A stretch of DNA of 64,000 nt from the sequence record PV808484.1. One strand, written 5' to 3'. Position numbers and translations under genes: made by a program. Every line of letters begins with the position of its first letter. Positions within the stretch are counted from its first letter, which is position 1. The notes below the pieces were generated by a model that ran no database searches, was not told where the DNA came from, and saw nothing but the letters and a program-made list of their open reading frames with translations. This document shows, piece after piece, positions 1-62,800 of this stretch. This stretch comes from a phage.

Positions 1-216
1 CCGCACACTGTTAAAAAATGCAAGTCAAGTTTTATTTTCAGATGACGAGTATTTCAACAAAGACATTACAGGCGTGAAAAATTTAAAAGACGTGAAGGAT
101 GTTATCGGTATCCGTGGATCTTTACGTAAAGGTGACATATACGGTAACAAGGTGCAATATAAACTGTCAAAAGATTATGATTTTACTTTGACAATTATCA
201 ATTAAGGGATCACAAA

Positions 217-375
217 ATGAAAACTTGCCAATGTGGTAAAAAGTCTATCTCTGGTTTAAAACGTGGCGTTGCTCTTTGTCAATATCACTATAACGCTCAA
301 ACGTGGGGTAAGCAGTGGGCGGATCAGATGGAAGAGGCAAAGAAAGAAAATATAAAAGTAGTTGCAAAGAAATAA
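217..375 (+). CDS. small Cys-rich protein (52 aa), possible zinc-binding
   Basis: ATG 217, stop 373-375; CQCG...CQYH spacing; below the 60 aa ORF-track cutoff. Confidence 0.35.
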   Translation: MKTCQCGKKSISGLKRGVALCQYHYNAQTWGKQWADQMEEAKKENIKVVAKK

Positions 376-400
376 AAATAAAGTAAACTGTATTCATCAA

Positions 401-422
401 GGCGGTGGAATAGCCCACCGCC
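401..422 (+). promoter_or_regulatory. GC-rich leader hairpin (GGCGGTGG-loop-CCACCGCC) just upstream of the start codon at 447
   Basis: 8 bp perfect stem read directly; same position as the conserved leader hairpins further downstream. Confidence 0.4.
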
Positions 423-446
423 TAACAAAGAGAAGAGGAAAACATC

Positions 447-617
447 ATGATCACTTTCGCTACCCGTGAAGCCGCTCGCAACGTTGCACGTAAAGTTAAC
501 GCCGCCAACCTGGGCGCTACGTTTAAAGCCCCGGTGAAAGATGAGTCAGGAAAATGGATCTTCCCTGGTCTGCGTCACGCTGATAAGCTGGGAACATTAA
601 CGTTAAAAAATAAATAA
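447..617 (+). CDS. hypothetical protein (56 aa)
   Basis: ATG 447 preceded by AGAAGAGGAA RBS-like purine run; stop 615-617. Confidence 0.35.
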   Translation: MITFATREAARNVARKVNAANLGATFKAPVKDESGKWIFPGLRHADKLGTLTLKNK

Positions 618-624
618 GATCCGC

Positions 625-683
625 TTGACAGTAGCATGATTTATAAGTAAAGTAACAACAACGGCGGGAAATGGTTTCCCGCC
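625..683 (+). promoter_or_regulatory. TTGACA-type promoter plus conserved leader hairpin GGCGGGA-AATGGTT-TCCCGCC (663-683)
   Basis: TTGACA at 625-630; identical 21 nt hairpin recurs at 2973, 4856 and 5715; followed by conserved ATCAATAAAGAGATAAG and ATG 704. Confidence 0.5.
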
Positions 684-703
684 ATCAATAAAGAGATAAG
701 ATT

Positions 704-1063
704 ATGAAATCAGTAAAAGCAATCAAAACTTACATTGTATCGGCTATTTCTTTTGAAGGTACTACAACCGAAAAAGAAAAAATCACCGAACTGATGCGCC
801 GTTTTAATTCTGAATACTGGTATCCCGATAATCAAAAACGTTACAATTATAACGTGATCAAGGCGATAGCCTCATGGTTACAAGGTTTACCGTCAGACAT
901 TAACATCGCCTTTGATTATAACGAGATCGATCACTTGTTAATTGAATGGAAGTACATAAAAGAAACAAGCAAAGAAACAACCGTTACCCGTGAGCGGGAA
1001 AATTATTGGTTATATATTGCAAGCATGATCGTAATCCTGGCAAAACAGCATAACGTGGCGTAA
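704..1063 (+). CDS. hypothetical protein
   Basis: ORF track; start directly after conserved leader. Confidence 0.5.
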   Translation: MKSVKAIKTYIVSAISFEGTTTEKEKITELMRRFNSEYWYPDNQKRYNYNVIKAIASWLQGLPSDINIAFDYNEIDHLLIEWKYIKETSKETTVTRERENYWLYIASMIVILAKQHNVA

Positions 1064-1078
1064 TTAAGAGGAAGAAAC

Positions 1079-1216
1079 ATGAACGCATCACAGCAGATCG
1101 AAAAATTCAACCGCAGCAAGGCGCGTAAAGATTGGAACGAAGAGATCACCAAAAAAGGCGACAAGCGGAACAAAACAAAAAGAGATCGCAGCACAAAAAG
1201 ACACTGGAACGAATAA
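1079..1216 (+). CDS. small basic protein (45 aa)
   Basis: AAGAGG RBS, ATG 1079; Lys/Arg-rich; followed by terminator. Confidence 0.35.
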   Translation: MNASQQIEKFNRSKARKDWNEEITKKGDKRNKTKRDRSTKRHWNE

Positions 1217-1223
1217 CAAAAAA

Positions 1224-1244
1224 GGGCGCAATAAGCGCCCTTTT
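1224..1244 (+). terminator. intrinsic terminator hairpin GGGCGC-AATAA-GCGCCC plus T-run
   Basis: read directly. Confidence 0.6.
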
Positions 1245-1334
1245 AGCTTATATAGAGGCTTGTTACCCATAGGCAATGGTAACGCCAGGGCAAGCCTATA
1301 AACAACGTTAGACGGCTTTACAGGAGCTTTAAAA

Positions 1335-1517
1335 ATGAGATTAGAAGAAATAAGCAAGGCACTAGCCCAGGGGCAAAGGTTATGCGCCAGATATCGTGAT
1401 CAATATGGCTTCATAACTAGCGGCGTGATCCTGGGGATTGAAGGCAATAAGATTTTTATTGACACGTTGAAAAACGTTGTATATAGTGACAATATAATCT
1501 CAATAAAACATATATGA
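1335..1517 (+). CDS. hypothetical protein
   Basis: ORF track. Confidence 0.4.
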   Translation: MRLEEISKALAQGQRLCARYRDQYGFITSGVILGIEGNKIFIDTLKNVVYSDNIISIKHI

Positions 1518-1525
1518 GGCAAGAA

Positions 1526-1927
1526 ATGAAAAACTTATTGATCGCTGGTTTACTCTCTTTTGGTATGGTTGGAACATCTAGCGCGGCGATATCCTCCACA
1601 GTAGCAGAATTAAGCGCCGTTGATGCAATGGAAAACGTCATGCTTATTAATAATGCGATCCCCGATGAAATCATGGAGGATTCACACATGATCGCTTATG
1701 GTGCTGTTACACAACTAACGGCAAAAATAGATAAATCTATTGTTAATGGCTTAAATGAAGATGTACCATGTGAAATTATTACCAGTGTGCTTACTACTCA
1801 AAATTTTACGCCGTGGTTAAAAAGTATTCAAAAAGTACACAGTACAGCCGCAGATCGTAGCAATGAAAAACTAGTGTCAGCACTTGCAACGTATACCCTA
1901 GCAAAATGCACCGAGATAAAAGATTGA
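1526..1927 (+). CDS. hypothetical secreted protein (N-terminal signal-peptide-like segment)
   Basis: start moved to the ATG at 1526 (MKNLLIAGLLSFGMVGTSSAA hydrophobic leader). Confidence 0.45.
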   Translation: MKNLLIAGLLSFGMVGTSSAAISSTVAELSAVDAMENVMLINNAIPDEIMEDSHMIAYGAVTQLTAKIDKSIVNGLNEDVPCEIITSVLTTQNFTPWLKSIQKVHSTAADRSNEKLVSALATYTLAKCTEIKD

Positions 1928-1974
1928 CAACATAGAAAGCACGTTATAAGATACACACAACAAAGGAGAACTAC

Positions 1975-2277
1975 ATGAACGGCATAGCTAAAACGTTTTT
2001 TCTTTTTTCTGGTGTAAATGATCCATCAATAAAAGTCGATAGTGTAAAAGAAAACAATACTATCACCGCTAAATTGTTTCAAGATGAAACAAATAACGTG
2101 CTAATCATTAATCTTAAAGAAATAACTAAAGGTTATTATACTATTGCTTACCATGCAATCTATCATGCTGGTACTAGTGAGGAAGTGCAAACAAGCAACA
2201 ACGAAAGCGCGGCGCTACCTGGTGATCTGGTGCTGGGCGTTATCAGTTTAATTGTCAATGATTTTTTTAAGGAGTAA
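1975..2277 (+). CDS. hypothetical protein
   Basis: ORF track; AAAGGAG RBS. Confidence 0.45.
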   Translation: MNGIAKTFFLFSGVNDPSIKVDSVKENNTITAKLFQDETNNVLIINLKEITKGYYTIAYHAIYHAGTSEEVQTSNNESAALPGDLVLGVISLIVNDFFKE

Positions 2278-2606
2278 AACCATGCCCTATTTACATTTAT
2301 TTTTCGGTATCTTATTGACAGGATCTTTTTTCTTCTGTATGCTTGTTTCTATTGTAAACCACGTTTTAAGACATTAAGGAAACAGCATGAAAATTATTCC
2401 CGTACAATATAGCGTAATAAATCCAGCATACGAGGAAGGAAGGAAAACAAGCATGGCTTTATGTTGTATTGCTACTATAGCCATGTTGTTATGCATTGTG
2501 TTTTAATAGGTTTTATAGTTGTACGCTTTAAAGGCTTGACAATTTTTTGTTATGCTTTAAACTATATCTTGAAAACGGCAAAGGCCGCAAACAAAAGGGT
2601 AAAATT

Positions 2607-2930
2607 ATGAAATCTGTGATCGGTGTTTATTTGGATAACTCTGATTTTTTCTATCATCGCGCTCGTTTCCTTGATGCGATTGAAATGATAGAATCAGGCT
2701 TTAAAGAGTATCGCCTTGCACATGATGACCTGGAAGCATTACAGGGCAATAGTGTTTTTACATTGCAAGCTAAAGCACTATGCAAAAGCCGGATCGACAT
2801 TGCGAGCAAAAAGATAGAACGCGGCATGTCCTGGTTGCGCACCGCAGAAATCAACATGGGGCAATGGTACGGCGAAAACTTAGAAAATAAACATGCTTTT
2901 GTCAATGTAGAAAATATTGAAGATTATTGA
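2607..2930 (+). CDS. hypothetical protein
   Basis: start at internal ATG 2607 after promoter-like TTGACA at 2536. Confidence 0.45.
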   Translation: MKSVIGVYLDNSDFFYHRARFLDAIEMIESGFKEYRLAHDDLEALQGNSVFTLQAKALCKSRIDIASKKIERGMSWLRTAEINMGQWYGENLENKHAFVNVENIEDY

Positions 2931-2993
2931 TTGACAGCACACCTAACGGGTAGTATATTGTATCTCATAGAGCGGGGAAATGGTTTCCCCGCC
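2931..2993 (+). promoter_or_regulatory. promoter TTGACA-17-TATATT plus conserved leader hairpin GCGGGGA-AATGGTT-TCCCCGC (2973-2993)
   Basis: read directly; followed by ATCAATAAAGAGATAAG and ATG 3013. Confidence 0.55.
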
Positions 2994-3012
2994 ATCAATA
3001 AAGAGATAAGCT

Positions 3013-3297
3013 ATGAAGATCACAAAAGCACTTTCCAACTATGCAGCACGTCGCGGATTATGTTTAACCGTTGAAAATTTAGGGAAAGAAGATTTTTTGT
3101 GCTTTTGGGAGCTTGAGAATGATAATGAGTGGATCTTCTCTTATTCTATCTGCGAAGATCAAAACGGTTGTTTATTAACCTGGCGCGGTAATATCTATCT
3201 ACCGGAAGAAATCAAAGAAGAATTACCAGGCACGATCATGACTGAGAAACAGCTTAAGGAAGTGATCAATTTTGTAGGGCAAAACATTAAAAAATAA
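3013..3297 (+). CDS. hypothetical protein
   Basis: ORF track. Confidence 0.5.
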   Translation: MKITKALSNYAARRGLCLTVENLGKEDFLCFWELENDNEWIFSYSICEDQNGCLLTWRGNIYLPEEIKEELPGTIMTEKQLKEVINFVGQNIKK

Positions 3298-3355
3298 TTT
3301 GACAGCAGAAAAACAACGTAGTAAAGTTTATCACATAGGGCGGCAATAGTGCCGC
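3298..3355 (+). promoter_or_regulatory. TTGACA promoter plus leader hairpin GCGGCA-ATAG-TGCCGC
   Basis: read directly; precedes ATG 3379. Confidence 0.45.
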
Positions 3356-3378
3356 TCATAACAGAAGAGAAACAAATC

Positions 3379-3549
3379 ATGATCCCGACTATGTTTTATG
3401 TATCGCGCAAAGGTCACAATATTTTTTGGTCTGAAGATTTAAATGAAGCCATGACGTTTGCCCGTGATCGTGTTGCTATCGGTGGCGTTAACATTACTGT
3501 AACCGATGAAAATGGCATTGAATACTATAACGGCGACGATGAAGAGTAA
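3379..3549 (+). CDS. hypothetical protein (56 aa)
   Basis: internal ATG of ORF 3349..3549, lying after the leader hairpin. Confidence 0.4.
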   Translation: MIPTMFYVSRKGHNIFWSEDLNEAMTFARDRVAIGGVNITVTDENGIEYYNGDDEE

Positions 3550-3556
3550 TTAACAA

Positions 3557-3575
3557 GGCGGGGAGTATTCCCGCC
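3557..3575 (+). promoter_or_regulatory. leader hairpin GGCGGG-GAGTATT-CCCGCC followed by GTCAATAAAGGATAA and ATG 3595
   Basis: read directly; variant of the conserved leader cassette. Confidence 0.45.
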
Positions 3576-3594
3576 GTCAATAAAGGATAATATC

Positions 3595-3732
3595 ATGAAA
3601 ACTTTCAACGCAACAGCATCAACAATTGGTTATATTATCACCGTGCAAGCTATTGATCTAGTAGCTGCAACAAACAAGATTAAAAACATGATCCCTGTAG
3701 GCAGTGATTTTTCCGTTTGGGAAGTAAAATAA
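3595..3732 (+). CDS. hypothetical protein (45 aa)
   Basis: ATG after leader cassette; below ORF-track cutoff. Confidence 0.35.
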   Translation: MKTFNATASTIGYIITVQAIDLVAATNKIKNMIPVGSDFSVWEVK

Positions 3733-3735
3733 ATC

Positions 3736-3797
3736 TTGACAGTGATTTGTTATTTGATAAGATGTACTACGTAGGGCGTGGCAATAAGGCAACGCCC
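3736..3797 (+). promoter_or_regulatory. TTGACA promoter plus leader hairpin GGGCGT...ACGCCC
   Basis: read directly; precedes ATG 3819. Confidence 0.45.
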
Positions 3798-3818
3798 CAC
3801 ATCAGAAAGGGAAAGATT

Positions 3819-4055
3819 ATGACTATAGCAACAGTATTAACCGCCGTTAAAACCGCCGAATCATCCGGCTTGCATGTTGAGATTATAGATCAACCAGGTG
3901 GCGATCTCCTTGTCCAGGTTTACCCGCCGAAAGTAGGGGATGATTATTATTGGTGCTATTCTGATACGTTCGAACAAGTAGACACGAAAGCGATCACGGC
4001 TTTTATTTTAAAAGCTATTGAAGAAAATAACTTTCATTATAACATCAATCAATAA
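3819..4055 (+). CDS. hypothetical protein
   Basis: internal ATG of ORF 3717..4055; the upstream part of that ORF overlaps the promoter. Confidence 0.45.
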   Translation: MTIATVLTAVKTAESSGLHVEIIDQPGGDLLVQVYPPKVGDDYYWCYSDTFEQVDTKAITAFILKAIEENNFHYNINQ

Positions 4056-4097
4056 ACCATAAGCGGGGCAGTAACGCCCACTAATGAGGGTAAAATC

Positions 4098-4202
4098 ATG
4101 TTAGAGAAAATTTTCACGGTTGTAGTAGTGGGCCTGGCGTTATCGGTTGGAGTGGTTGCAACTATGGCTAACATGATTCTATCTTCTCACGGTATTGGAT
4201 AA
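4098..4202 (+). CDS. small hydrophobic protein (34 aa)
   Basis: ATG 4098; predicted single transmembrane helix. Confidence 0.3.
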   Translation: MLEKIFTVVVVGLALSVGVVATMANMILSSHGIG

Positions 4203-4212
4203 GGTGAATCAA

Positions 4213-4428
4213 ATGATCACGAATAAGACAGGTAAAACAGAATTTTTACGCGGCTTGCAAATAGGTAAACCTGAGATCTGGCATTGCACTAAATCCGCGC
4301 ATAATGAAATGAAAGATTTTACCGCTACTTTACAACGTGTTAAAATATCTATCACACAGAAAAAAGCCTTGTTAGTAGTAGAAAACGAGATCCCGCAAAC
4401 TATTATTATTGTCGAGCGTACAGCATGA
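4213..4428 (+). CDS. hypothetical protein
   Basis: ORF track, start at internal ATG 4213. Confidence 0.4.
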   Translation: MITNKTGKTEFLRGLQIGKPEIWHCTKSAHNEMKDFTATLQRVKISITQKKALLVVENEIPQTIIIVERTA

Positions 4429-4811
4429 AAACAGAAATCATTATTGAAATCATCAACGGTTATAAAGAAGCCTTTATTTTTGCTGAATCCGCCAGGGATC
4501 ATGAAGGTAATTTTATTGATAACTTGACTGATTATGATTTTTCAGATCAAGCCCATCAGCGGATCATTCATGACGTAGCGGCTTATTGTGATGCCAATGA
4601 TGCCGCTATCTCTGAGGCAATGAGCGACGGCGCAACAGCCAACCAGATCGGGAATGATTTACATTTTACCCGTAATAGTCACGGCGTAGGCTTTTGGGAT
4701 CGCCCTGAAATATACACTACTAACACCGCCAACCGCTTAACTAATGCAGCTAAATTGATGCCATCGGTGCATGCTTACATTGGTGAAGATAATTTGATTT
4801 ATATTGAATAA
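4425..4811 (+). CDS. hypothetical protein
   Basis: ORF track; ATGA stop-start overlap with upstream gene. Confidence 0.5.
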   Translation: MKTEIIIEIINGYKEAFIFAESARDHEGNFIDNLTDYDFSDQAHQRIIHDVAAYCDANDAAISEAMSDGATANQIGNDLHFTRNSHGVGFWDRPEIYTTNTANRLTNAAKLMPSVHAYIGEDNLIYIE

Positions 4812-4817
4812 AAAGTA

Positions 4818-4876
4818 TTGACACCGATCCCCAATATGGTACTATTTACCACGTAGGCGGGAAATGGTTTCCCGCC
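4818..4876 (+). promoter_or_regulatory. promoter TTGACA-17-TACTAT plus conserved leader hairpin GGCGGGA-AATGGTT-TCCCGCC (4856-4876)
   Basis: read directly. Confidence 0.55.
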
Positions 4877-4899
4877 AGGTAATCAAAAAGGTAAATACT

Positions 4900-5289
4900 A
4901 TGCGCAACCTGGTTTCTGTTTCTAACGTTGAAAAATTTCAATCTTTACAGGGTATCGTTAACAACGTAGCGCCTTTTTTAGTCAACGGCTTGATTGCAAA
5001 GATGAAAAATAAACATCATGCGGCATGGTCTGCTTACTGCTTTGATAATGATGAAAAAGCGGCTGAAATGATGTTAAATATGCTGTTAGACAGTGTAGAA
5101 TCATCTTTACCGGAAAACATCGCAGAAGAGATCACCTATCGTTATAATATGGCGATCACTTACCAGGAGGTTGCGCAATTTAATATGATGGACGATGACG
5201 AACAACAGGATCAGGAAATTTTCTGGGAGTATGCAGATCGTCAATCGGCTTTTGATGAAAAGTTAGCGATGTATTATAACGAATATTAA
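4900..5289 (+). CDS. hypothetical protein
   Basis: start moved to ATG 4900; the ORF-track start at 4864 lies inside the leader hairpin. Confidence 0.45.
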   Translation: MRNLVSVSNVEKFQSLQGIVNNVAPFLVNGLIAKMKNKHHAAWSAYCFDNDEKAAEMMLNMLLDSVESSLPENIAEEITYRYNMAITYQEVAQFNMMDDDEQQDQEIFWEYADRQSAFDEKLAMYYNEY

Positions 5290-5306
5290 TACACGGTAAA
5301 AGAAAG

Positions 5307-5329
5307 GGGCGCACTAAGCGCCCTTTTTT
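5307..5329 (+). terminator. intrinsic terminator GGGCGC-ACTAA-GCGCCC plus T-run
   Basis: read directly. Confidence 0.6.
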
Positions 5330-5675
5330 GTATTCTTTTTTCACAATGGAAGCGACACGTAAAGAATAGGCGTAAAAGGTGGCGTAAAACCATCTAAAAC
5401 CGACTGTAACCGCTTAAACAAGGCAGGGATGATTAATCCCCTTACCAGGATGAAAAAGCTGTTAGAGAGCTATTCATAGCGTTTAAAGCACATAGGAAAT
5501 AATTTGCTTTTTATCTTGCCTTTTATCCTGCTTTTGATTATTATTATGGAACGGGCGGCACCTGGGGACAGGGGAAGATAATCACCGGAAGATCCCGCTA
5601 TATATTGATAGCTAATACCTATTAAACAACAAAACATCAAAGGGATAAACTATCAAATCTTTACAATCCTACCTA

Positions 5676-5735
5676 TTGACACACGATCACCCTTATACTA
5701 ATATGTATCCCGTAGGCGGGAAATGGTTTCCCGCT
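5676..5735 (+). promoter_or_regulatory. TTGACA promoter plus conserved leader hairpin (5715-5735)
   Basis: read directly; precedes ATG 5754. Confidence 0.5.
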
Positions 5736-5753
5736 TGATATAGGAATCATACC

Positions 5754-5984
5754 ATGATCGAACAAATTAAAAGCACTCAAAATGTTAACGGCAATGTGTT
5801 CCACTTTATCGGCAATAAAGGAAAAGGCGTACCCTACGCCGCCGTAACCGTGCAACCTAATGGCGATTATTGGTTTACCGTGTACGGATCATACTCTTTC
5901 GGACGCCCGGCACATGATAAGATCTTGCAAGCGGTTAAACCTGCGGGGAAGAATATTACAGCAGAAAAATTTTATAAAAAATAG
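5754..5984 (+). CDS. hypothetical protein
   Basis: ORF track. Confidence 0.5.
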   Translation: MIEQIKSTQNVNGNVFHFIGNKGKGVPYAAVTVQPNGDYWFTVYGSYSFGRPAHDKILQAVKPAGKNITAEKFYKK

Positions 5985-6059
5985 CTTGCTTTATTTCTTC
6001 TGTTAACTTATAGTTATCGCGTAGGGCAAACAATTTTAAACGGTAGACGAGGAATCACC

Positions 6060-6443
6060 ATGAGCAATATCATCAACCTGGCAGCGACTGTAAACGGTAA
6101 AGACTTTAACGGCGCTGTAGACCGTGATCCTATGTGGTGCTTATCAGTGTTTAAAGGCGATCTGGTTGAAGTTAGAACAACCGAAGGGTATAGCGATGAT
6201 TATAAATGCGAGATCCATTTACATAACTGGTACACGGGGAAAACTTATGCGCTGAATCACGCGTTTATCGGGAAAATTGAATATCGCGAGATGATCGACG
6301 ATGAAACGGGGCAAGATTTTAGTGATTATGTTTATATTCGTTCAGAAACATTAGCCGAACGTTTGATCGAGAAAATGAAAGCAAAAAATAAAATTAATTT
6401 AGCTCATTGGCTTGATATAACAAATGATCCGGCTTACAAGTAA
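6060..6443 (+). CDS. hypothetical protein
   Basis: ORF track; GAGGAA RBS. Confidence 0.5.
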   Translation: MSNIINLAATVNGKDFNGAVDRDPMWCLSVFKGDLVEVRTTEGYSDDYKCEIHLHNWYTGKTYALNHAFIGKIEYREMIDDETGQDFSDYVYIRSETLAERLIEKMKAKNKINLAHWLDITNDPAYK

Positions 6444-6459
6444 ATAACATTTCATACCA

Positions 6460-6485
6460 GGGCGCACAAAGCGCCCTTTCTTTTT
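6460..6485 (+). terminator. intrinsic terminator GGGCGC-ACAAA-GCGCCC plus T-run
   Basis: read directly. Confidence 0.6.
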
Positions 6486-6742
6486 ACCTAAATAAAGATG
6501 ATAGCTTTTACCTATCAAAAACATTCACCGAAAAAAGTGAATAGATCGCGGTATCGAGCTAATCAAGGAGCAGATGAACAACCATACCATGAAGATCATA
6601 AGGCGCTTACAACGTGTTTTAAACCGCTTATTTTTAATTTCTCCATGTAACTATCTGGCAAAAACAGCCTTTTTCGTGTCTTTCCTCTTAAGTGATAATC
6701 ATTCTTATTTATAGCTGATTATTTATGCAATAAACTGCATAA

Positions 6743-6762
6743 TGCAATAATGATAATCATTC
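6743..6762. repeat. Fur-box-like iteron (AATGCAATAATGATAATCATT)
   Basis: shares the ATGATAATCATT core with the copies at 7629 and 7817; a shorter copy lies at 6694-6704. Confidence 0.45.
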
Positions 6763-7176
6763 TTAACTTATGACCATCTAACCTATAAAATAATAAGTTA
6801 TCTAACTAAATTAAAGCTAATTATTTCACCTTTATTTATAACTTACTGTTACTATCTCATTGATAACCTTATATTAAACAACAATAACTAATATAAATCA
6901 TTACTAAGCTAAATATAATCTATCTAACCTTTAAAACTATAACTATAATCTATCGAATTGTTGCACAAAGTAACTATTAAATTGTTAGTAACATTACTAA
7001 ATAATTCATATCCTATCTATTTATGATCTAATCTTTACTTTCCTATCTATTACCTAAATAATCCTATCATACAGTTACCATTTCATGTAATAATCATTTC
7101 ATACAATAACTATAACAAGAAATATAATTCGCAAGCGTATCATTAGCAGCCTATGCCGGACACATAGGCGGCTAAT

Positions 7177-7312
7177 AATAACGCAACTACACACCCCACA
7201 TAATAACCATCACCGATAGTTATTATTTGTGCTTATGTAGCTTGCAACAATTGCAAGCGCAACAATATACATGGTATATTGTATCCCTTACATTGTTGCG
7301 GTGCGTTATTAT
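7177..7312. repeat. long-range inverted repeat (GCTAATAATAACGCAAC / GTTGCGGTGCGTTATTATTAGC) enclosing palindromes
   Basis: read directly; inner palindromes GCCTATG-N7-CATAGGC and GCTTGCAA-CAA-TTGCAAGC. Confidence 0.4.
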
Positions 7313-7628
7313 TAGCTAATGTTTGGAACATTGGCTATAATATAAGCTAAATAATAAGCTATTCAATAATAAACATAATGAATAATGACACTGATGATCA
7401 TAATGCGCCACCTTCCAGGGGGCGCTATGTGAACACAAAGAAATCTTTCTTGTCAAGAAAAATATTAACACTATTGCGCAAAATTATTTATGTCTGAATA
7501 GATGATTTTTCATACTATTGTTATTATTTATCGGCCCTAACTATTGCCTATTTGTTGAGCCTACTTTCTTAAAAGCGCAATAAATCAGAATTATCTTGAT
7601 TTTTAGGGTGTTTTATAGTATAGAAAAT

Positions 7629-7649
7629 ATGCAAATGATAATCATTATC
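7629..7649. repeat. Fur-box-like iteron GCAAATGATAATCATTATC
   Basis: about 17 of 19 positions match the enterobacterial Fur box consensus GATAATGATAATCATTATC. Confidence 0.45.
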
Positions 7650-7816
7650 AGCTATCTTCCACGGGTGGCACTATTTCACGCAGGATCATTTCATTTGGCA
7701 AGGTGTATATAGATGTTTAGACTTGCCAAGCCATTGATTTACTTAGAATTTATCTGTTTTGTTGTGAGTAGTACCTTTCTTGCTCAGAAAATAATCAAAA
7801 GTCTTATAAGTCATTG

Positions 7817-7845
7817 AATGATAATGCAAATGATAATTATTCTCA
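7817..7845. repeat. Fur-box-like iteron pair GAATGATAATGCAAATGATAATTATTCTC
   Basis: read directly. Confidence 0.45.
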
Positions 7846-8206
7846 TTGATATTTGAGGGGGACGGTCGGCAGAAATCGGGGGGCGCTGAAAATCGCGTTA
7901 AGCACCTCTCGCAAGCGAGCAGTATTTTGCGGCAAGTTATTGATATTATTGGCTTTACGCTTATGGAAAGGGGGTGTGTCGAAATAAATCGGGTATACCG
8001 GAAAATTTTTGTGGCATAGATATTTATTTGTCTATATTATGTACAAAGGGGTGTGTTAAAAATATTAGGTATATATAGAATAATTGATAGGGAAATCCTA
8101 TACTAATTCCTCCATTAATGATGTTTCTATGTTGCTGTTCTTGTAACAGATGAAAAGACGCTGTATGATGTGTAGCATGAAACGTAAATTTATAAAGGAG
8201 TCTGAT

Positions 8207-22525: not shown

Positions 22526-22564
22526 ATAAAGCCCCTGTTTGGGGCTTTGGTTAAGTTTTACGGA

Positions 22565-23176
22565 TTATACCAGACTTTTAAGGTACTTGTCAAGGGCTTC
22601 TTGATCACCTTGACAAACATAGCAACGGAAGTCTTGAGCAGAAGGTTCTTTGTCCTCGTCCCAATCCCAATAGACAGTACCTTTATAGCGTGAGCCTGGG
22701 AACTCGAAGTATGCCACATGAGTAATATGGTGTGGGCCACCCCAAAATTCTGTAAAAGTAAATTGAGGATACGCTGCTTTAACTGTATTTTCAAACCAAG
22801 TTTTACGATCTAATGCTTCGTTTATAAAATAAGCATGGCGTTCCATTTCATCCCAATCTTTCCAAACGCATTTTTCATCCAGAGAAAAAACAAAATCTTC
22901 ACTGTTAAAATCGTCTGTATCTGATTCCAAAATATCATAATCATGTGCACTAGGTATCCACCATCCAGCTTCTAATAGTGCTTTTGCAGGTACAAAACCT
23001 TTTTCAGCATATTGATCAAATTCTTTTACTCTACGTACAGTGCAGTATTCATCTTCACCACCAATGTCCAGTAGACAAGCACCTTTGCGTCTTGCTGCAA
23101 GACCATGTGTATCAAAAACTACAACACTACCTTCACCGTCTTCACGATCTACTTGATATGCAACTTTTTGAGTCAT
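22565..23176 (-). CDS. hypothetical protein
   Basis: ORF track. Confidence 0.45.
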   Translation of the reverse strand: MTQKVAYQVDREDGEGSVVVFDTHGLAARRKGACLLDIGGEDEYCTVRRVKEFDQYAEKGFVPAKALLEAGWWIPSAHDYDILESDTDDFNSEDFVFSLDEKCVWKDWDEMERHAYFINEALDRKTWFENTVKAAYPQFTFTEFWGGPHHITHVAYFEFPGSRYKGTVYWDWDEDKEPSAQDFRCYVCQGDQEALDKYLKSLV

Positions 23177-30429: not shown

Positions 30430-30458
30430 CTCCTAATAACCCCCCTTGAGGGGGTTTA
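30430..30458 (-). terminator. terminator hairpin CCCCCCTTGAGGGGG
   Basis: read directly. Confidence 0.5.
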
Positions 30459-30465
30459 TACTAGA

Positions 30466-31119
30466 TTAATTATCAGAGGACACTTTATCAAGTTTTTCAG
30501 AGACTGTCAATACTTTTTCTTGTGATTCTTTCATTTCTGCTAAAATACTTTCAGCTTCATCACTATCAGGATCACCAGTCAACAGCATACTAATTAGTTG
30601 CTCCTTGCTGAAGTTCAGAATATCTTCCGCTGTTAACTCCAGTTGTTCTTCGATCTCTTCGATAAAAGTTTCACCGCCTGAAAAAGCATCTCGCAGTTTT
30701 GCAACTTCCATCGCTTCTTCTGGGGTTGCCCCAGCGTCTAAAGCTGCTAAAGCAAAATCTGCCCCACTACCCACAGCATAATAATCTTCAGTTAAAGGAT
30801 ATGCTCGCGTTGGATTATTACCCTCGTGCATATAAATTTTACCGTCTGGGTGAACAACCAATGCCACAAACTCTTCATCTTCTTTATCAGGATCTGACTG
30901 GATCACCAAACCTGGGATTGTCTCTTGTGCTGCTTGGCATTGTAAGTTTTGTTCGAACCAAGAAAAGAAAGTCAGGATAGAAGACAGACGTCCTGCACCA
31001 CCAACAAGGTAATCCCCAATTTTACGCACTTTCTTGAAATTTAAAGTGTCTACACGACTACCTACTGTTACCTTACCGTCAGACAGAATTTTGTTACGTG
31101 TTGCAATAATTGTTGTCAT
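30466..31119 (-). CDS. HslV/proteasome beta-subunit-like N-terminal-nucleophile peptidase with acidic C-terminal extension
   Basis: MTTIIATR (Thr2), KKVRKIGDYLVGGAG and YAVGSGADFALAA align with the HslV N-terminus, Gly-rich loop and GSG block. Confidence 0.6.
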   Translation of the reverse strand: MTTIIATRNKILSDGKVTVGSRVDTLNFKKVRKIGDYLVGGAGRLSSILTFFSWFEQNLQCQAAQETIPGLVIQSDPDKEDEEFVALVVHPDGKIYMHEGNNPTRAYPLTEDYYAVGSGADFALAALDAGATPEEAMEVAKLRDAFSGGETFIEEIEEQLELTAEDILNFSKEQLISMLLTGDPDSDEAESILAEMKESQEKVLTVSEKLDKVSSDN

Positions 31120-42075: not shown

Positions 42076-42172
42076 AAATTCTCCTTCTCTCTTTTAAGGA
42101 GAGCATAGCTCTCCTAACGTTAGCCTATACTACACGAATCTCAATTAAAAGTCAACTATAATTTTAAGTTGA

Positions 42173-47818: not shown

Positions 47819-47893
47819 TGGTGTGTCTCCTTAAAAGCCCACCTAACTAAGTAGGTAGGCATATTAACACATATTAAATTAGTAAGTCAAGTA

Positions 47894-60270: not shown

Positions 60271-60356
60271 GCAAGTGTGGTGGAATTGGTGATACACATT
60301 GTGCTTAAAACGCAACGCTTAAATGATTGAGGGTTCGAATCCCTCCACTTGCACCA
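60271..60356 (+). tRNA. tRNA-Leu (anticodon TAA), class II
   Basis: acceptor GCAAGTG/CACTTGC, T-arm GAGGG-TTCGAAT-CCCTC, anticodon loop CTTAAAA, long variable arm, encoded CCA. Confidence 0.7.
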
Positions 60357-60358
60357 AC

Positions 60359-60464
60359 GCCTAGTAGGGTATTTGGTAATTCCGAGGCCATCAAAGCCTG
60401 AAAAATATGTTAGACCGCTTTGTCTAACTAAATACGAAATATGGTTCGATTCCATAACTAGGCT
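60359..60464 (+). tRNA. atypical 106 nt tRNA-like element
   Basis: perfect 7 bp acceptor GCCTAGT/ACTAGGC and canonical T-arm TATGG-TTCGATT-CCATA, but about 30 nt too long; candidate anticodon loop CATCAAA. Confidence 0.3.
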
Positions 60465-60497
60465 TCAATTTAAATAGTAATTTTAGTAAAAAATATC

Positions 60498-60526
60498 TTG
60501 ACATTTACTTAGTTTTTTGTTATAGT
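60498..60526 (+). promoter_or_regulatory. promoter TTGACA-17-TATAGT driving downstream tRNAs
   Basis: read directly; ideal 17 bp spacing. Confidence 0.55.
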
Positions 60527-60537
60527 CGTTATGAAAA

Positions 60538-60619
60538 CGGGGTGTATCTCACCTGACTTCTAATCAGGCGTTAACCGAGTAATTGGAGTATGCAGGTTCG
60601 AATCCTGTCACCCCGGCCA
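60538..60619 (+). tRNA. tRNA-like element, possible tRNA-Arg (anticodon loop CTTCTAA) with irregular D region
   Basis: perfect acceptor CGGGGTG/CACCCCG, T-arm GCAGG-TTCGAAT-CCTGT, CCA; perfect stem-loop CCTGA-CTTCTAA-TCAGG; cloverleaf not resolved. Confidence 0.4.
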
Positions 60620-60682
60620 AAAAGTTTTAAAAACTACTTGACAAGCAAGATAGTTTTATGTTAGATTTAAAGTATGATAACT

Positions 60683-60772
60683 GGAAGGTAGGGCGCAGCG
60701 GTGCGCAACCAGGTTTGAACCCTGGCCCATTGTAGCGATACGGTGATGGTTCGACTCCATTATCTTCCTCCA
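60683..60772 (+). tRNA. tRNA-Ser (anticodon TGA), class II
   Basis: acceptor GGAAGGT/ATCTTCC, D-arm GCGC-AGCGGT-GCGC, anticodon arm CCAGG-TTTGAAC-CCTGG, 19 nt variable arm, T-arm GATGG-TTCGACT-CCATT, CCA. Confidence 0.8.
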
Positions 60773-60790
60773 AATTCAATGAGTGATTTT

Positions 60791-60943
60791 ATGAATTATA
60801 AAACTATTGGACAGGTTGTTACCGGAGTTAAGATTGTAAATAATAAAGTTGTTTATGAGTATTCTAATCTTCAACAATCTGAAGATGGTAAGAATATTCG
60901 TATGGTAAAAGCAGAACAAAAAGATTCCGGTTGTTTTGAATAA
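60791..60943 (+). CDS. hypothetical protein (50 aa)
   Basis: internal ATG of ORF 60743..60943; the upstream part overlaps tRNA-Ser. Confidence 0.35.
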   Translation: MNYKTIGQVVTGVKIVNNKVVYEYSNLQQSEDGKNIRMVKAEQKDSGCFE

Positions 60944-60951
60944 TTAAGAAC

Positions 60952-61037
60952 GGTAGATTGGTGAAATGGTAGCCACAACAGTTTGCTAAACTGTCGTCGG
61001 AAACGGCGTGTAGGTTCAAGTCCTACATCTACCGCCA
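60952..61037 (+). tRNA. tRNA-Ser (anticodon GCT), class II
   Basis: acceptor GGTAGAT/ATCTACC, anticodon arm ACAGT-TTGCTAA-ACTGT, variable hairpin CGTCGGAAACGGCG, T-arm GTAGG-TTCAAGT-CCTAC, CCA. Confidence 0.8.
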
Positions 61038-61172
61038 AGTTATCTTTAATGTAGCTTGTAATCTTACTTTAGCAGAGTAAATCTTCGGCAAGTGGCGGTA
61101 ACCACTTTACCGATACCCCAATACTTCATAGCTAAGTGCCGCAAACACTGGCTATTTTAAAGATAATTTTAT

Positions 61173-61247
61173 ACATCGTTAGCCAAGCGGTAAGGCACTT
61201 GACTTTTAATCAAGGGAGCGAAGGTTCGAATCCTTCACGATGTACCA
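61173..61247 (+). tRNA. tRNA-Lys (anticodon TTT)
   Basis: acceptor ACATCGT/ACGATGT, anticodon arm CTTGA-CTTTTAA-TCAAG, T-arm GAAGG-TTCGAAT-CCTTC, CCA. Confidence 0.85.
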
Positions 61248-61252
61248 AACAC

Positions 61253-61339
61253 GTAGGTATCGCATAGCGGCAATTGCTGGAGACTGTAAATCTCCTGCCC
61301 TTCGGGGCTTCGTTGGTTCGAGTCCAACTACCTGCACCA
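61253..61339 (+). tRNA. tRNA-Tyr (anticodon GTA), class II
   Basis: acceptor GTAGGTA/TACCTGC (one G-U), anticodon arm GGAGA-CTGTAAA-TCTCC, variable hairpin, T-arm GTTGG-TTCGAGT-CCAAC, CCA. Confidence 0.8.
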
Positions 61340-61346
61340 AATTAAA

Positions 61347-61431
61347 GATGGATTGGCCTAGTGGTTGGGCGACGGACTGTTAATCCGTGAACGAAAGTTC
61401 TAGCAAGGTTCAAATCCTTGATCCATCGCCA
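61347..61431 (+). tRNA. tRNA with Asn anticodon (GTT) on a class II (long variable arm) scaffold
   Basis: acceptor GATGGAT/ATCCATC, 3 bp D-stem GCC/GGC, anticodon arm ACGGA-CTGTTAA-TCCGT, 15 nt extra arm GAACGAAAGTTCTAG, T-arm CAAGG-TTCAAAT-CCTTG, G73, CCA. Confidence 0.65.
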
Positions 61432-61435
61432 AATA

Positions 61436-61504
61436 GTGCTTGTAGAGTTAATAGAAACCTCTAGAATTTTCTAGAATTGTAGGTATCAAATCCTACCAAG
61501 CAAA
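61436..61504 (+). tRNA. tRNA-like element, no encoded CCA, irregular anticodon region
   Basis: 6 bp acceptor pairing, T-arm GTAGG...CCTAC with 8 nt loop; region contains TCTAGA-ATTTTC-TAGA palindrome. Confidence 0.25.
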
Positions 61505-61510
61505 TATTTT

Positions 61511-61585
61511 GCTCCTATCGTATAACGGCTATTACGGTTGCCTTGTAAGCAACTTATCAGGGTTCGAGTCCTTGTGGGAGCACCA
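61511..61585 (+). tRNA. tRNA-Thr (anticodon TGT)
   Basis: acceptor GCTCCTA/TGGGAGC (one G-U), anticodon arm GTTGC-CTTGTAA-GCAAC, T-arm CAGGG-TTCGAGT-CCTTG, CCA. Confidence 0.8.
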
Positions 61586-61607
61586 ATTTAACTCTAAAGG
61601 AGTGTAT

Positions 61608-61931
61608 GTGACAGAAAAAGAGTTAGAGAAATATTTTAATATCAATGTTTTCGATGGTTTTGATGATATTGAAGATGTTGAAAGATACTATGAAGTAGAG
61701 TTAGATAAGGATAACATTGTAATTCTTTCTGCCACTTATGATTGTGCATATTATGAAGGCGAATCTCACGTTTATTTCTATGATATGAAAACATCTTTGT
61801 TTTATGAAGTACACGCATATCATTGTTCTTGTTATGGCTTAGAAGGTCAGTGGGAACCTGAAGAAATAGGTGATTTGAGCTTTACGGTTGCATATCTAAA
61901 CAGACGTGGTGCATCTACTATTTTAAAATAA
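61608..61931 (+). CDS. hypothetical protein
   Basis: GTG start 5 nt after AAAGGAG RBS; the ORF-track N-terminus overlaps tRNA-Thr. Confidence 0.45.
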   Translation: MTEKELEKYFNINVFDGFDDIEDVERYYEVELDKDNIVILSATYDCAYYEGESHVYFYDMKTSLFYEVHAYHCSCYGLEGQWEPEEIGDLSFTVAYLNRRGASTILK

Positions 61932-61945
61932 ATATTAAAAGCCTC

Positions 61946-61975
61946 TTGACAAAGGGGCTAATAATATGTTAGAGT
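61946..61975 (+). promoter_or_regulatory. TTGACA-type promoter upstream of tRNA-Gly
   Basis: TTGACA 61946-61951. Confidence 0.45.
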
Positions 61976-61986
61976 AATATTGTTAA

Positions 61987-62061
61987 GCGGGTATAGTGTT
62001 AATGGTAGCATATGAGGTTTCCACCCTCCAGGTGCAGGTTCAAGTCCTGTTACTCGCTCCA
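61987..62061 (+). tRNA. tRNA-Gly (anticodon TCC)
   Basis: acceptor GCGGGTA/TACTCGC, anticodon loop TTTCCAC, T-arm GCAGG-TTCAAGT-CCTGT, CCA. Confidence 0.7.
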
Positions 62062-62160
62062 AGATTATTTAAATGGAATCGCTAGAGAAAATTTCTCTTT
62101 TCGCTCATGGTTTTCTCCTTCAAACTCTAGCGGTTCTTTTTAAGTGATTTTTAGTTTTAT

Positions 62161-62235
62161 TGGAGATTAGCCTAGTGGGAAGGCAACGGCCTTTGAAGTC
62201 GTGATGACTAGGTTCGATTCCTAGATCTCCAGCCA
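62161..62235 (+). tRNA. tRNA-Gln (anticodon TTG)
   Basis: U1-A72 acceptor TGGAGAT/ATCTCCA, anticodon arm ACGGC-CTTTGAA-GTCGT, T-arm CTAGG-TTCGATT-CCTAG, CCA. Confidence 0.85.
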
Positions 62236-62242
62236 ATATTTA

Positions 62243-62318
62243 CAGTGCGTAGCGCAGTTGGTAGCGTGGGAGCTTTGGATGCTTCGGGTCGCAGGTTCGA
62301 GTCCTGCCGCACTGACCA
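62243..62318 (+). tRNA. tRNA-Pro (anticodon TGG)
   Basis: acceptor CAGTGCG/CGCACTG, D-arm GCGC-AGTTGGTA-GCGT, anticodon arm GGAGC-TTTGGAT-GCTTC, T-arm GCAGG-TTCGAGT-CCTGC, CCA. Confidence 0.85.
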
Positions 62319-62323
62319 AATTT

Positions 62324-62398
62324 GCAGAGATAGCTGAGACGGATTAGTGCTACCCTGAAAAGGTAGAAAGGATGGATCGTTACCATCTCTCTGCACCA
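62324..62398 (+). tRNA. tRNA-Phe (anticodon GAA)
   Basis: acceptor GCAGAGA/TCTCTGC, anticodon arm CTACC-CTGAAAA-GGTAG, T-arm GATGG-ATCGTTA-CCATC, CCA. Confidence 0.8.
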
Positions 62399-62475
62399 AA
62401 TAACACCATCCAAGGAGTAGACTTGGTTAACTGTCAATAGCACATTGAGGCTTCTTACAGTGGTGCACTTATTAT

Positions 62476-62560
62476 GGCTAAGTGGTGGAATGGTATACAC
62501 GATACGCTTAGAACGTATTGCCCCAAGGGATTGTGAGTTCGAGTCTCACCTTAGCTACCA
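62476..62560 (+). tRNA. tRNA-Leu (anticodon TAG), class II
   Basis: acceptor GGCTAAG/CTTAGCT, anticodon arm ATACG-CTTAGAA-CGTAT, long variable arm, T-arm GTGAG-TTCGAGT-CTCAC, CCA. Confidence 0.8.
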
Positions 62561-62575
62561 AATTACTACAGATTG

Positions 62576-62654
62576 CGCGGGATAGAGGAGTCTGGTCGTC
62601 CTCGCCAGTTTCATATGCTGGAGATCATCGGTTCGAATCCGATTCCCGCCTCCA
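62576..62654 (+). tRNA. tRNA-Met (anticodon CAT; elongator, initiator or Ile2 not distinguishable)
   Basis: acceptor with one C-C mismatch at pair 1-72, D-arm GAGG...CCTC, anticodon arm CCAGT-TTCATAT-GCTGG, T-arm ATCGG-TTCGAAT-CCGAT, CCA. Confidence 0.7.
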
Positions 62655-62698
62655 ATAAATACTTCCCTTCTGGTGTAATGATTAAATTACATTGACAC

Positions 62699-62795: not shown

Positions 62796-62800
62796 ATTAT

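What the first reader, a model, noticed from the sequence alone, without database searches (positions are those of the whole stretch)
401..5735. Recurrent promoter / leader-hairpin / conserved RBS cassette in front of early genes
At least four genes (starts 704, 3013, 4900, 5754) are preceded by TTGACA-N17-(TA-rich -10), then the same 21 nt hairpin GGCGGGA-AATGGTT-TCCCGCC (one variant GCGGGGA...TCCCCGC), and in two cases the identical string ATCAATAAAGAGATAAG before the ATG. Variants with different GC stems and a near-identical downstream string occur at 401, 3340, 3557 and 3774. An identical structured leader on several transcripts suggests a shared post-transcriptional control point, such as a binding site for a phage or host RNA-binding protein, an RNase processing or protection element, or a transcription pause or attenuation signal.
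Basis: seen in the sequence. Interest (0 to 1): 0.6.

Follow-up and report, generated by a model that had tools for sequence, protein, structure and literature searches.

The report
Promoter-hairpin cassettes of phage early genes
The early-gene region of this phi92-like coliphage is built from repeated ~80-base units (strong host-type promoter, a GC-rich hairpin at the very start of the transcript, a ribosome site), which most likely give each tiny gene a stable, insulated message and also act as the joints at which related phages swap such genes.

Summary
In window 400-5737 nine GC-rich hairpins without T-tracts each end 16-23 nt before a start codon. Six of them begin 8-12 nt after the -10 of a perfect TTGACA promoter. 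The window is a Justusliebigvirus (phi92-like) genome, and the region is its array of tiny early genes of unknown function.

The same unit recurs more than 140 times in 14 related loci. It is specific to these arrays: 76% of promoter-proximal leaders fold at -10 kcal/mol or below, against about 4-6% of controls and 1 of 16 promoters elsewhere in the window.

Stem sequences differ between copies and are swapped in front of the same gene, and loops vary among orthologues. Structure is therefore conserved rather than a specific protein-binding sequence. G:U pairs favour the sense RNA.

Homology breakpoints between phages cluster in the hairpins, and whole gene modules move between them. More distant relatives (CR3, P7_Pc, SSBI34) carry the same leader hairpins alongside hairpins inside the promoter spacer, which is the geometry of the PeSL cassettes of T4-like phages.

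Verdict: this is a PeSL-type mobile expression cassette in a non-T4 lineage, of the leader-hairpin form. The hairpin most likely protects and insulates the mRNA end rather than terminating transcription. That function is inferred, not shown. Interest is moderate.

The parts
400..423 (+). Promoterless hairpin AGGCGGTGG-aatagc-CCACCGCCT. It starts 24 nt after the upstream stop codon and ends 23 nt before ATG 447.
   Evidence: Folds at -19 kcal/mol and dominates the centroid structure.
625..703 (+). Full cassette: TTGACA-N17-TAAAGT (625-653), 9 nt, hairpin 663-683, A-rich ribosome site, ATG 704.
   Evidence: z = -3.8; Shine-Dalgarno and AUG unpaired.
2931..3012 (+). Full cassette: TTGACA-N17-TATATT (2931-2959), hairpin 2972-2992, ATG 3013.
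   Evidence: Homology breakpoint at 2989 in 4 phages. The same gene carries a family-B hairpin in Phapecoctavirus.
3299..3378 (+). Full cassette: TTGACA-N17-TAAAGT (3299-3327), hairpin 3338-3357 (GGGCGGCA-atag-TGCCGCTC, with one G:U pair), ATG 3379.
   Evidence: Vequintavirus JEP1 shares only 3321-3362 at 95% identity.
3557..3594 (+). Promoterless hairpin 3557-3575 (GGCGGGGA-gta-TTCCCGCC), 7 nt after the upstream stop codon, plus ribosome site; ATG 3595.
   Evidence: Breakpoints at 3558 and 3575. The orthologue in Vequintavirus ime has a promoter.
3736..3818 (+). Full cassette: TTGACA-N16-TAAGAT (3736-3763), hairpin 3774-3797 with one internal mismatch, ATG 3819.
   Evidence: Breakpoints at 3788-3797. 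In P3322, tuntematon and ime the promoter and 5' arm are fused to the module that starts at window 4073.
4063..4097 (+). Degenerate half-cassette (4-bp GGGC/GCCC core, 4066-4079) plus ribosome site; ATG 4098. Read as a recombination scar.
   Evidence: weak fold. Breakpoints at 4073/4079 in 12 alignment ends. Junction sequences.
4818..4899 (+). Full cassette: TTGACA-N16-(TG)TACTAT (4818-4845), hairpin 4856-4876, ATG 4900. The ATG at 4864 lies in the hairpin loop and is not the likely start.
   Evidence: The same promoter is joined to three other hairpin-plus-gene modules in P3322, ZCKP1 and WPEC1.
5676..5753 (+). Full cassette: TTGACA-N17-TAATAT (5676-5704), hairpin 5713-5737, ATG 5754.
1220..1244 (.). 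For contrast: a canonical two-way intrinsic terminator, AAAAGGGCGC-aataa-GCGCCCTTTT. Two more lie at 5301-5329 and 6459-6477. This is a different class (A-tract and T-tract flanks).
   Evidence: all three hairpins with flanking sequence. flags 5301 and 6459 on the + strand and lists 1220-1244 on the - strand only.

Best explanation
Each unit is a self-contained, portable early-expression cassette of the PeSL kind (promoter-early stem-loop).

Its parts, in order:
- an A-tract, a consensus -35 and an (often extended) -10, read by host sigma-70 RNA polymerase;
- a conserved ..TATCAC(A/G)TA.. stretch that places the transcription start about 3 nt before a GC-clamped hairpin of roughly -14 kcal/mol;
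- 16-25 nt of A-rich, unstructured ribosome-binding sequence.

Proposed function, which is inferred and not shown:
- On the cassette's own transcript the hairpin forms at the extreme 5' end. There it hinders 5'-end-dependent decay (RppH, then RNase E) and keeps the ribosome site free of upstream pairing.
- On read-through transcripts from the gene upstream, the same hairpin separates the cistrons. After cleavage in the A/U-rich spacer it can cap the upstream message at its 3' end.
- It is not an efficient intrinsic terminator.

Because the same ~20-80 nt is repeated in one orientation before many unrelated small genes, it also supplies the short homology at which modules are deleted, inserted and exchanged. 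This happens within Stephanstirmvirinae and between Stephanstirmvirinae and Vequintavirinae.
For: Shown here:
- Geometry. Of 143 cassettes, 101 have a promoter. The -10-to-hairpin distance is 10-11 nt in 67 of those 101 (range 6-14). After the -10, position 7 is C in 57 of 74 unique rows and position 8 is a purine in 70 of 74. This predicts a transcript start with about 3 unpaired nt.
- Specificity, tested without selecting for hairpins. 75 of 99 unique promoter-proximal 34-mers fold at -10 kcal/mol or below, against 3.6% of random and 5.6% of shuffled 34-mers. Only 1 of 16 perfect TTGACA promoters in window 7-64 kb does so.
- In context the hairpin dominates the centroid fold, and the Shine-Dalgarno sequence and AUG stay unpaired.
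- Structure rather than sequence is kept. Stem families A and B replace each other before the same 94-, 56- and 90-aa genes. Loops vary among orthologues (cac/tag/tac). Three stem positions carry two or three Watson-Crick pair types.
- RNA sense strand. 20 G:U-type pairs against 6 A:C-type; sense folds are more stable than antisense (Wilcoxon p = 9e-4).
- Not terminators. None has a T-tract, and the + strand scan flags only 5301 and 6459.
- Module joints. 31 of 93 alignment ends (7 of about 29 distinct events) fall within 3 nt of a hairpin, which is 3.6% of the region.
- Link to PeSL. CR3, P7_Pc and SSBI34 carry the same CACATA-GGGCG leader hairpins together with hairpins in the -35/-10 spacer or around the -10. 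That is the PeSL geometry.
- The genes served are all of unknown function.

Established knowledge used: base pairing at the 5' end slows RNase E (review PMC3997798). The T7 gene 10 leader hairpin is cited from my own memory.
Against: - No transcript ends have been mapped, so the start site and the 3-nt tail are predictions.
- Three unpaired nucleotides are enough for RppH in vitro, so the protection may be partial.
- Three hairpins in the window have no promoter.
- In Certrevirus many hairpins sit in the promoter spacer, where they cannot cap their own transcript. If one function serves all positions, it must act on read-through RNA or on DNA.
- Four promoters in the array work without a hairpin.
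- The near-invariant GGCGG...CCGCC base and the frequent AAU(G/A)GU apex are more conserved than a purely structural role requires, although gene conversion between copies could explain this.
- The G:U count is biased, because the hairpin finder allowed G:T pairs.
Confidence: 0.5

Rival explanations
1. Attenuator or terminator. This is the reading given to PeSLs in T4-like phages. The hairpin would stop or thin out transcription arriving from upstream units, so that flux from many tandem strong promoters does not pile up.
For: - The stem-loop of an RB49 PeSL lowered downstream lacZ as much as rrnB T1 (PMC2839356).
- Hairpins sit between nearly all units, including three without promoters.
- In CR3 and P7_Pc, 25 of 46 promoters carry the hairpin in the spacer, where only read-through RNA contains it.
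- GenBank records ASO2A and Paula annotate them as terminators.
- The sequence after the stem is A/U-rich.
Against: - No T-tract follows any of them: 0-2 U in the next 8-10 nt.
- The phage uses textbook terminators where it needs them (1220, 5301, 6459). The consensus scan flags no leader hairpin on the + strand.
- In this lineage the hairpin always lies downstream of its own promoter (84 of 120 promoters; 0 of 120 in the spacer). A terminator there would cut off its own gene.
- The position is fixed relative to the -10.
Confidence: 0.2
2. Specific protein-binding RNA. The hairpin would be a shared operator for a phage or host factor, for example a boxB/N-like antiterminator, a translational repressor or an endonuclease that shuts off early messages.
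For: - Identical 21-nt hairpins lie before several genes.
- The GGCGG/CCGCC base is near-invariant, and an AAU(G/A)GU apex is shared by the two main stem families.
- The CACRTA-GGGCG motif is kept across two subfamilies.
Against: - Loops differ among orthologues, and one loop is inverted.
- Whole stem families are interchangeable before the same gene.
- Stem length and loop size vary.
- No boxA-like element appears in the cassette consensus.
- There is no Rfam match.
Confidence: 0.1
3. DNA-level element. The inverted repeat would act in DNA, within the polymerase footprint (-35 to +25), in one of three ways: as an operator, as a cruciform that switches early promoters off, or as the site of a dedicated (integron-like or mini-circle) recombination system.
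For: - In the wider clade the repeat can lie in the spacer, around the -10 or at +4 to +24, always inside the promoter footprint.
- Breakpoints cluster in it.
- One loop inversion points to hairpin formation in DNA.
- PeSL mini-circles have been reported in RB49 and phi1.
Against: - The spacing between half-sites varies from 8 to 12 bp, and G:T positions break DNA symmetry while keeping RNA pairing.
- Copies without promoters exist.
- Crossovers lie at the 5' edge, the loop and the 3' edge rather than at one fixed point, as expected for homology-driven exchange.
Confidence: 0.08
4. Passenger repeat. The hairpin would have no role in expression. It would persist because cassettes spread and homogenise by recombination or gene conversion, perhaps as remnants of terminators that lost their T-tracts.
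For: - Copies are very similar within a genome while promoter spacers differ.
- Four promoters in the window do without it.
- 43 orthologue groups never have it.
Against: - Pairing is kept through changes on both sides.
- The geometry is kept in phages whose homologous proteins are only 30-40% identical.
- 22 orthologue groups keep the hairpin in every member.
- The asymmetry between sense and antisense strands.
Confidence: 0.1

Closest known systems
PeSLs (promoter-early stem-loops) of T4-like phages RB49/phi1, PST/T4 and nt-1/KVP40 (Arbiol 2010, PMC2839356; Comeau 2014, PMC4122927)
   Same: - Composite unit of a near-consensus sigma-70 early promoter, an A/T-rich upstream region, a G-run/C-run stem-loop, a Shine-Dalgarno sequence and a start codon.
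- Repeated many times in a region of small genes of unknown function.
- Gene insertions, deletions and replacements between close relatives have their junctions in the units.
- Relatives of this phage (CR3, P7_Pc, SSBI34) show the classic PeSL positions, in the spacer or around the -10.
   Different: - Different phage lineage (Stephanstirmvirinae and Vequintavirinae, not T4-like).
- In this window and its subfamily the stem-loop always starts about 10 nt after the -10. It is therefore transcribed as the 5' end of the unit's own message, a position at most touched by the rarest PeSL subclass.
- It lacks terminator features.
- Terminator activity and mini-circles were not tested here.
5'-terminal stabiliser hairpins (ompA and papA 5' UTRs; T7 gene 10 leader)
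   Same: A stable stem-loop within a few nucleotides of the 5' end of the primary transcript, followed by an unstructured ribosome site. The effect does not depend on the stem sequence.
   Different: Those are single, experimentally proven cases. Here the transcript start and any effect on half-life are only predicted, the element is repeated before dozens of genes, and some copies are internal to operons.
Intrinsic (Rho-independent) terminators
   Same: GC-rich stem with a G-rich 5' arm and a short loop, in an intergenic position. Annotation pipelines (WebGeSTer, and the Paula record) call them terminators.
   Different: There is no U-tract, and they lie downstream of a promoter and directly before a ribosome site. 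The phage's real terminators have A-tract and T-tract flanks.
lambda-type nut/boxB sites
   Same: A small hairpin shortly after early promoters.
   Different: There is no boxA, the loops are not conserved, the stems are longer and variable, and the hairpin is present before nearly every gene rather than once per operon.

Membership tests
PeSL (promoter-early stem-loop cassette) | Near-consensus sigma-70-type early promoter with an A/T-rich upstream region | tested here: met
   Perfect TTGACA, N16/17 spacer, TAnnnT -10, an A-tract upstream and often TGn before the -10.
PeSL (promoter-early stem-loop cassette) | Adjacent stable stem-loop (G-run, loop, C-run), with Shine-Dalgarno sequence and start codon at the 3' end of the unit | tested here: met
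PeSL (promoter-early stem-loop cassette) | Stem-loop upstream of, within or overlapping the promoter (five subclasses, up to just before the transcription start) | tested here: not met
   In the window and in all Stephanstirmvirinae loci the stem starts 6-14 nt after the -10: 0 of 120 promoters have a spacer hairpin and 84 of 120 have a leader hairpin. The feature is met in the relatives CR3 and P7_Pc (25 of 46 in the spacer, others around the -10) (definition).
PeSL (promoter-early stem-loop cassette) | Concentrated in a variable region next to small genes of unknown function | tested here: met
   Confined to window 400-5737. All genes served fall in PHROG families of unknown function.
PeSL (promoter-early stem-loop cassette) | Insertions, deletions and replacements between relatives have junctions in the units | tested here: met
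PeSL (promoter-early stem-loop cassette) | Stem-loop terminates transcription in a reporter; mini-circles form | not testable with these tools
   Needs reporter assays and inverse PCR.
Intrinsic terminator | GC-rich hairpin followed at once by a U-rich tract | tested here: not met
   No T-tract after any of the nine hairpins. The scan flags none of them on the + strand.
5'-terminal mRNA stabiliser hairpin | Stem-loop within about 4 nt of the 5' end of the primary transcript | tested here: inconclusive
   The predicted start (C at position 7, purine at position 8 after the -10) leaves about 3 unpaired nt. No transcript mapping is available.
5'-terminal mRNA stabiliser hairpin | Lengthens mRNA half-life, independent of stem sequence | not testable with these tools
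   Only the sequence independence is supported indirectly, by the swapping of stem families.
nut/boxB antitermination site | Conserved loop recognised by an N-type protein, with boxA nearby | tested here: not met
   Loops vary among orthologues, and no boxA appears in the cassette consensus.
Any curated RNA family (Rfam 15) | Covariance-model match | tested here: not met
   No match at the hairpins, even at E-values up to 5.

The most novel reading that the evidence does not exclude
The hairpins would be the working sites of a cassette-exchange system, comparable to integron attC hairpins or PeSL mini-circles, that moves small early genes between two phage subfamilies. Alternatively they would be the common handle by which a still unknown phage factor switches the whole early gene set off. 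In either case the conserved CACRTA-GGGCGG...CCGCC frame would be a recognition signal and not only a structure.
Probability: 0.1. Interest if true: 0.75.

Novelty: new variant of a known kind. Interest (0 to 1): 0.42.

Why it matters
- It extends the PeSL idea, that regulatory cassettes double as joints for gene shuffling, from T4-like phages to two other large groups of therapeutic coliphages. It also shows a form in which the stem-loop is part of the message.
- It explains why automated annotation places "terminators" directly after promoters in these genomes.
- It gives a concrete, testable reason for the extreme mosaicism of the early region, including near-identical gene modules shared across subfamilies.
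- The units are compact natural promoter/5'-hairpin/RBS parts that could be used for expression design or for inserting payload genes into these phages.

Tried and rejected
- Rfam, at gathering thresholds and at E-values up to 5: nothing at the hairpins.
- MAFFT alignments of the hairpins (A1, A2). They align by sequence and break the structural register, so RNAalifold found only 3 pairs. I used centre-anchored counts in Python instead. Those rows were chosen as hairpins, so pairing in them is partly circular. The non-circular test is. No covariance model was built.
- Scans of viral contigs. The exact family-A 21-mer is found only in 3 stretches from 2 contigs of close relatives. The 17-nt family-B pattern gives many single hits in unrelated contigs, likely chance GC-rich palindromes, and was not followed up.
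- tRNA acceptor-stem mimicry or an RNase P substrate. GCGGGAA/UUCCCGC equals the E. coli tRNA-Gly(GCC) acceptor stem as I remember it. However, no CCA follows the stem and the phage's own 14 tRNAs differ. Rejected as coincidence.
- RNase III site: the stems, 8-11 bp, are too short.
- Terminators on the minus strand, as annotated in the Paula record: only the 663 and 3557 copies have a T-rich tail on that strand, and there are no minus-strand genes in the array.
- The AUG in the loop (AAUGG): the reading frame relative to the gene is inconsistent and there is no Shine-Dalgarno sequence. Not a start codon.
- Literature search for transcript maps or any description of these units in phi92-, phAPEC8- or rV5-like phages: none found.

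Full report
**What the window is.** Bases 1-6600 match about 180 phage records. The best match is Escherichia phage EmilieFrey (100% covered, 96% identity), and the matches include phi92. These are Justusliebigvirus and Phapecoctavirus (subfamily Stephanstirmvirinae). In phi92 the region corresponds to gp225-gp248, next to the right terminal repeat. It is a one-directional array of very small genes. All ten tested fall in PHROG families of unknown function, and only the last one (6060-6443) has a Pfam name, Gp30.8.

**Check of the observation.**
- Nine GC-rich hairpins without T-tracts lie at 400-423, 663-683, 2972-2992, 3338-3357, 3557-3575, 3774-3797, 4063-4080 (degenerate), 4856-4876 and 5713-5737.
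- Each ends 16-23 nt before an ATG with a purine-rich Shine-Dalgarno sequence.
- Six follow a perfect TTGACA-N16/17-TAnnnT promoter by 8-12 nt. Three (400, 3557, 4063) have no promoter.
- One correction: the spacer before gene 4900 is 16 nt, with TG before the -10.
- The 21-mer is not expected by chance (0.00 in shuffles).
- Three canonical terminators with A-tract and T-tract flanks (1220, 5301, 6459) form a separate class. The consensus scan flags 5301 and 6459 on the + strand and lists 1220 on the - strand only.
- Four perfect promoters (1459, 1924, 2315, 2536) have no such hairpin.

**How general it is.** In the window plus 14 related loci I found 143 hairpin-RBS-ATG units, 101 of them with a promoter.
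- The distance from the end of the -10 to the stem is 10-11 nt in 67 of those 101.
- The consensus is an A-tract, TTGACA, N16 (71 units) or N17 (30 units), often TGn, TAnnnT, (G/T)TATCAC(A/G)TA and then GGGCGG. C is at position 7 and a purine at position 8 after the -10. This predicts a start about 3 nt before the stem.
- A test that does not select for hairpins: of 99 unique 34-mers starting 5 nt after the -10 of perfect promoters in these arrays, 75 fold at -10 kcal/mol or below. The figure is 3.6% for random 34-mers and 5.6% for shuffled leaders. Only 1 of 16 such promoters in window 7-64 kb does so.
- In context the hairpin dominates the centroid structure, and the Shine-Dalgarno sequence and AUG stay open.
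- Rfam has nothing at these positions.

**Structure or sequence?** Several stem families exist:
- A: GGCGGGAAA-tgg-TTTCCCGCC
- B: GGGCGGCA-atgg/atag-TGCCGCTC
- C: GGGGCG-gnaa-CGCCCC
- D: AGGCGGGA-ttaa-TCCCGCCT
- E: AGGCGGTGG-aatagc-CCACCGCCT

The same gene carries family A in one genus and family B in another (the 94-, 56- and 90-aa genes). Loops vary among orthologues (cac/tag/tac), and one loop is inverted. In a centre-anchored alignment three stem positions carry two or three Watson-Crick pair types. These rows were picked as hairpins, so this count is only descriptive. G:U-type pairs outnumber A:C-type pairs 20 to 6, and sense folds are more stable than antisense folds (p = 9e-4). The caveat is that the hairpin finder allowed G:T pairs. 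Presence is stable per gene: 22 orthologue groups always have the hairpin, 43 never do, and 7 are mixed. Together this favours a generic RNA structure on the sense strand. It argues against a loop-specific protein site and against a DNA operator with fixed half-site spacing.

**Module boundaries.** I ran local BLAST of window 1-7000 against the loci. Alignment ends fall within 3 nt of a hairpin in 31 of 93 cases (7 of about 29 distinct events), although these positions make up 3.6% of the region and 11% of its non-coding part. Junction sequences are explicit:
- In P3322, tuntematon and the Vequintavirus ime, the promoter and 5' arm of the window's 3736 cassette are fused, within AACGCCC of the 3' arm, to the ribosome site and gene of window 4098.
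- The 3819 gene sits elsewhere in P3322 and tuntematon, between two other hairpins.
- The 4818 promoter is joined to three different hairpin-plus-gene modules in other phages.
- The 94-aa gene has a different promoter and hairpin in Phapecoctavirus.
- Vequintaviruses share single modules at 84-89% nucleotide identity, with ends at 3558, 3797 and 4073.

Crossovers lie at the 5' edge, the loop or the 3' edge of the hairpin, as expected for short-homology exchange.

[quoted passage not shown] Their stem-loop lies upstream of, within or over the promoter, and was read as a terminator. Distant relatives of this phage bridge the two designs. In Certrevirus CR3 and P7_Pc, 25 of 46 promoters have a GC hairpin in the -35/-10 spacer and others have the -10 in the loop. 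Eleven carry the same CACATA-GGGCG leader hairpin as here, five of them both kinds, and SSBI34 shows a similar mix. In Stephanstirmvirinae 0 of 120 promoters have a spacer hairpin and 84 of 120 have the leader form. GenBank records ASO2A and Paula annotate these hairpins as terminators placed directly after promoters. No paper in the library describes them or maps transcripts in these phages.

**Mechanism.**
- Shown: the anatomy, its conservation, the strand bias, the lack of terminator features, and the role as a module boundary.
- Inferred: the hairpin caps the 5' end of its own transcript with about 3 free nucleotides. It thereby slows 5'-end-dependent decay, since a base-paired 5' end is a poor RNase E substrate (PMC3997798). 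It insulates the ribosome site, and on read-through RNA it separates cistrons and can protect the upstream 3' end.
- Main rival: attenuation of upstream transcription, as proposed for PeSLs. The spacer-located hairpins in Certrevirus keep this rival alive.
- Less likely rivals: a specific RNA-binding factor, a DNA-level switch or recombination site, and a functionless passenger repeat.

**Verdict.** It is best filed as a new variant of the PeSL kind rather than a new regulatory principle. The function of the hairpin remains to be tested by 5'/3'-end mapping and by compensatory stem mutations.

Noticed in passing
window 6715-8150: About 1.4 kb without any ORF of 60 aa or more, directly after the early array; the phi92 equivalent lies next to the terminal repeat. 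It holds four copies of a Fur-box-like palindrome, AATGATAATCATT, at 6691, 6749, 7634 and 7829. The stretch 7631-7649 (GCAAATGATAATCATTATC) matches 17 of 19 positions of the E. coli Fur box consensus, where chance expects 0.07 matches.
   Followed up: partly
L132 (CR3), L134 (P7_Pc), L133 (SSBI34): Early promoters of Certrevirus and a related Salmonella phage carry GC hairpins inside the -35/-10 spacer (TTGAC-GGGGCC...GGCCCC-ATAAT) or with the -10 hexamer in the loop. This is classic PeSL geometry in a group where it has apparently not been described.
   Followed up: partly
L003 664-687 versus window 400-423: The orthologous hairpin has its loop reverse-complemented (aatagc versus gctatt) on an unchanged stem. 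This is the signature of strand switching within a DNA hairpin.
   Followed up: no
window 42097-42155, 30438-30510, 22527-22593 and 47860-47890, minus strand: Other sigma-70-like promoters followed by unrelated hairpins before a ribosome site, for example GGAGAGC-tatg-CTCTCC, whose 3' arm is complementary to the downstream Shine-Dalgarno sequence. Some also serve as two-way terminators.
   Followed up: no
window 60271-62876: A cluster of 14 tRNA genes, several preceded by perfect TTGACA promoters without leader hairpins.
   Followed up: no
window 3558-3797 and 4073-4426 versus L011 (Vequintavirus ime): Single small-gene modules are shared at 84-89% nucleotide identity between two phage subfamilies. 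The ends lie at hairpins (3558, 3797, 4073), except 4426, which lies at a gene end. This points to recent horizontal transfer of individual cassettes.
   Followed up: partly
window 4864: ORF callers can start the 4900 gene at the ATG inside the hairpin loop (AAATGG), which adds 12 spurious residues. The same loop ATG opens mini-ORFs of 6 and 9 codons at 671 and 2980.
   Followed up: partly
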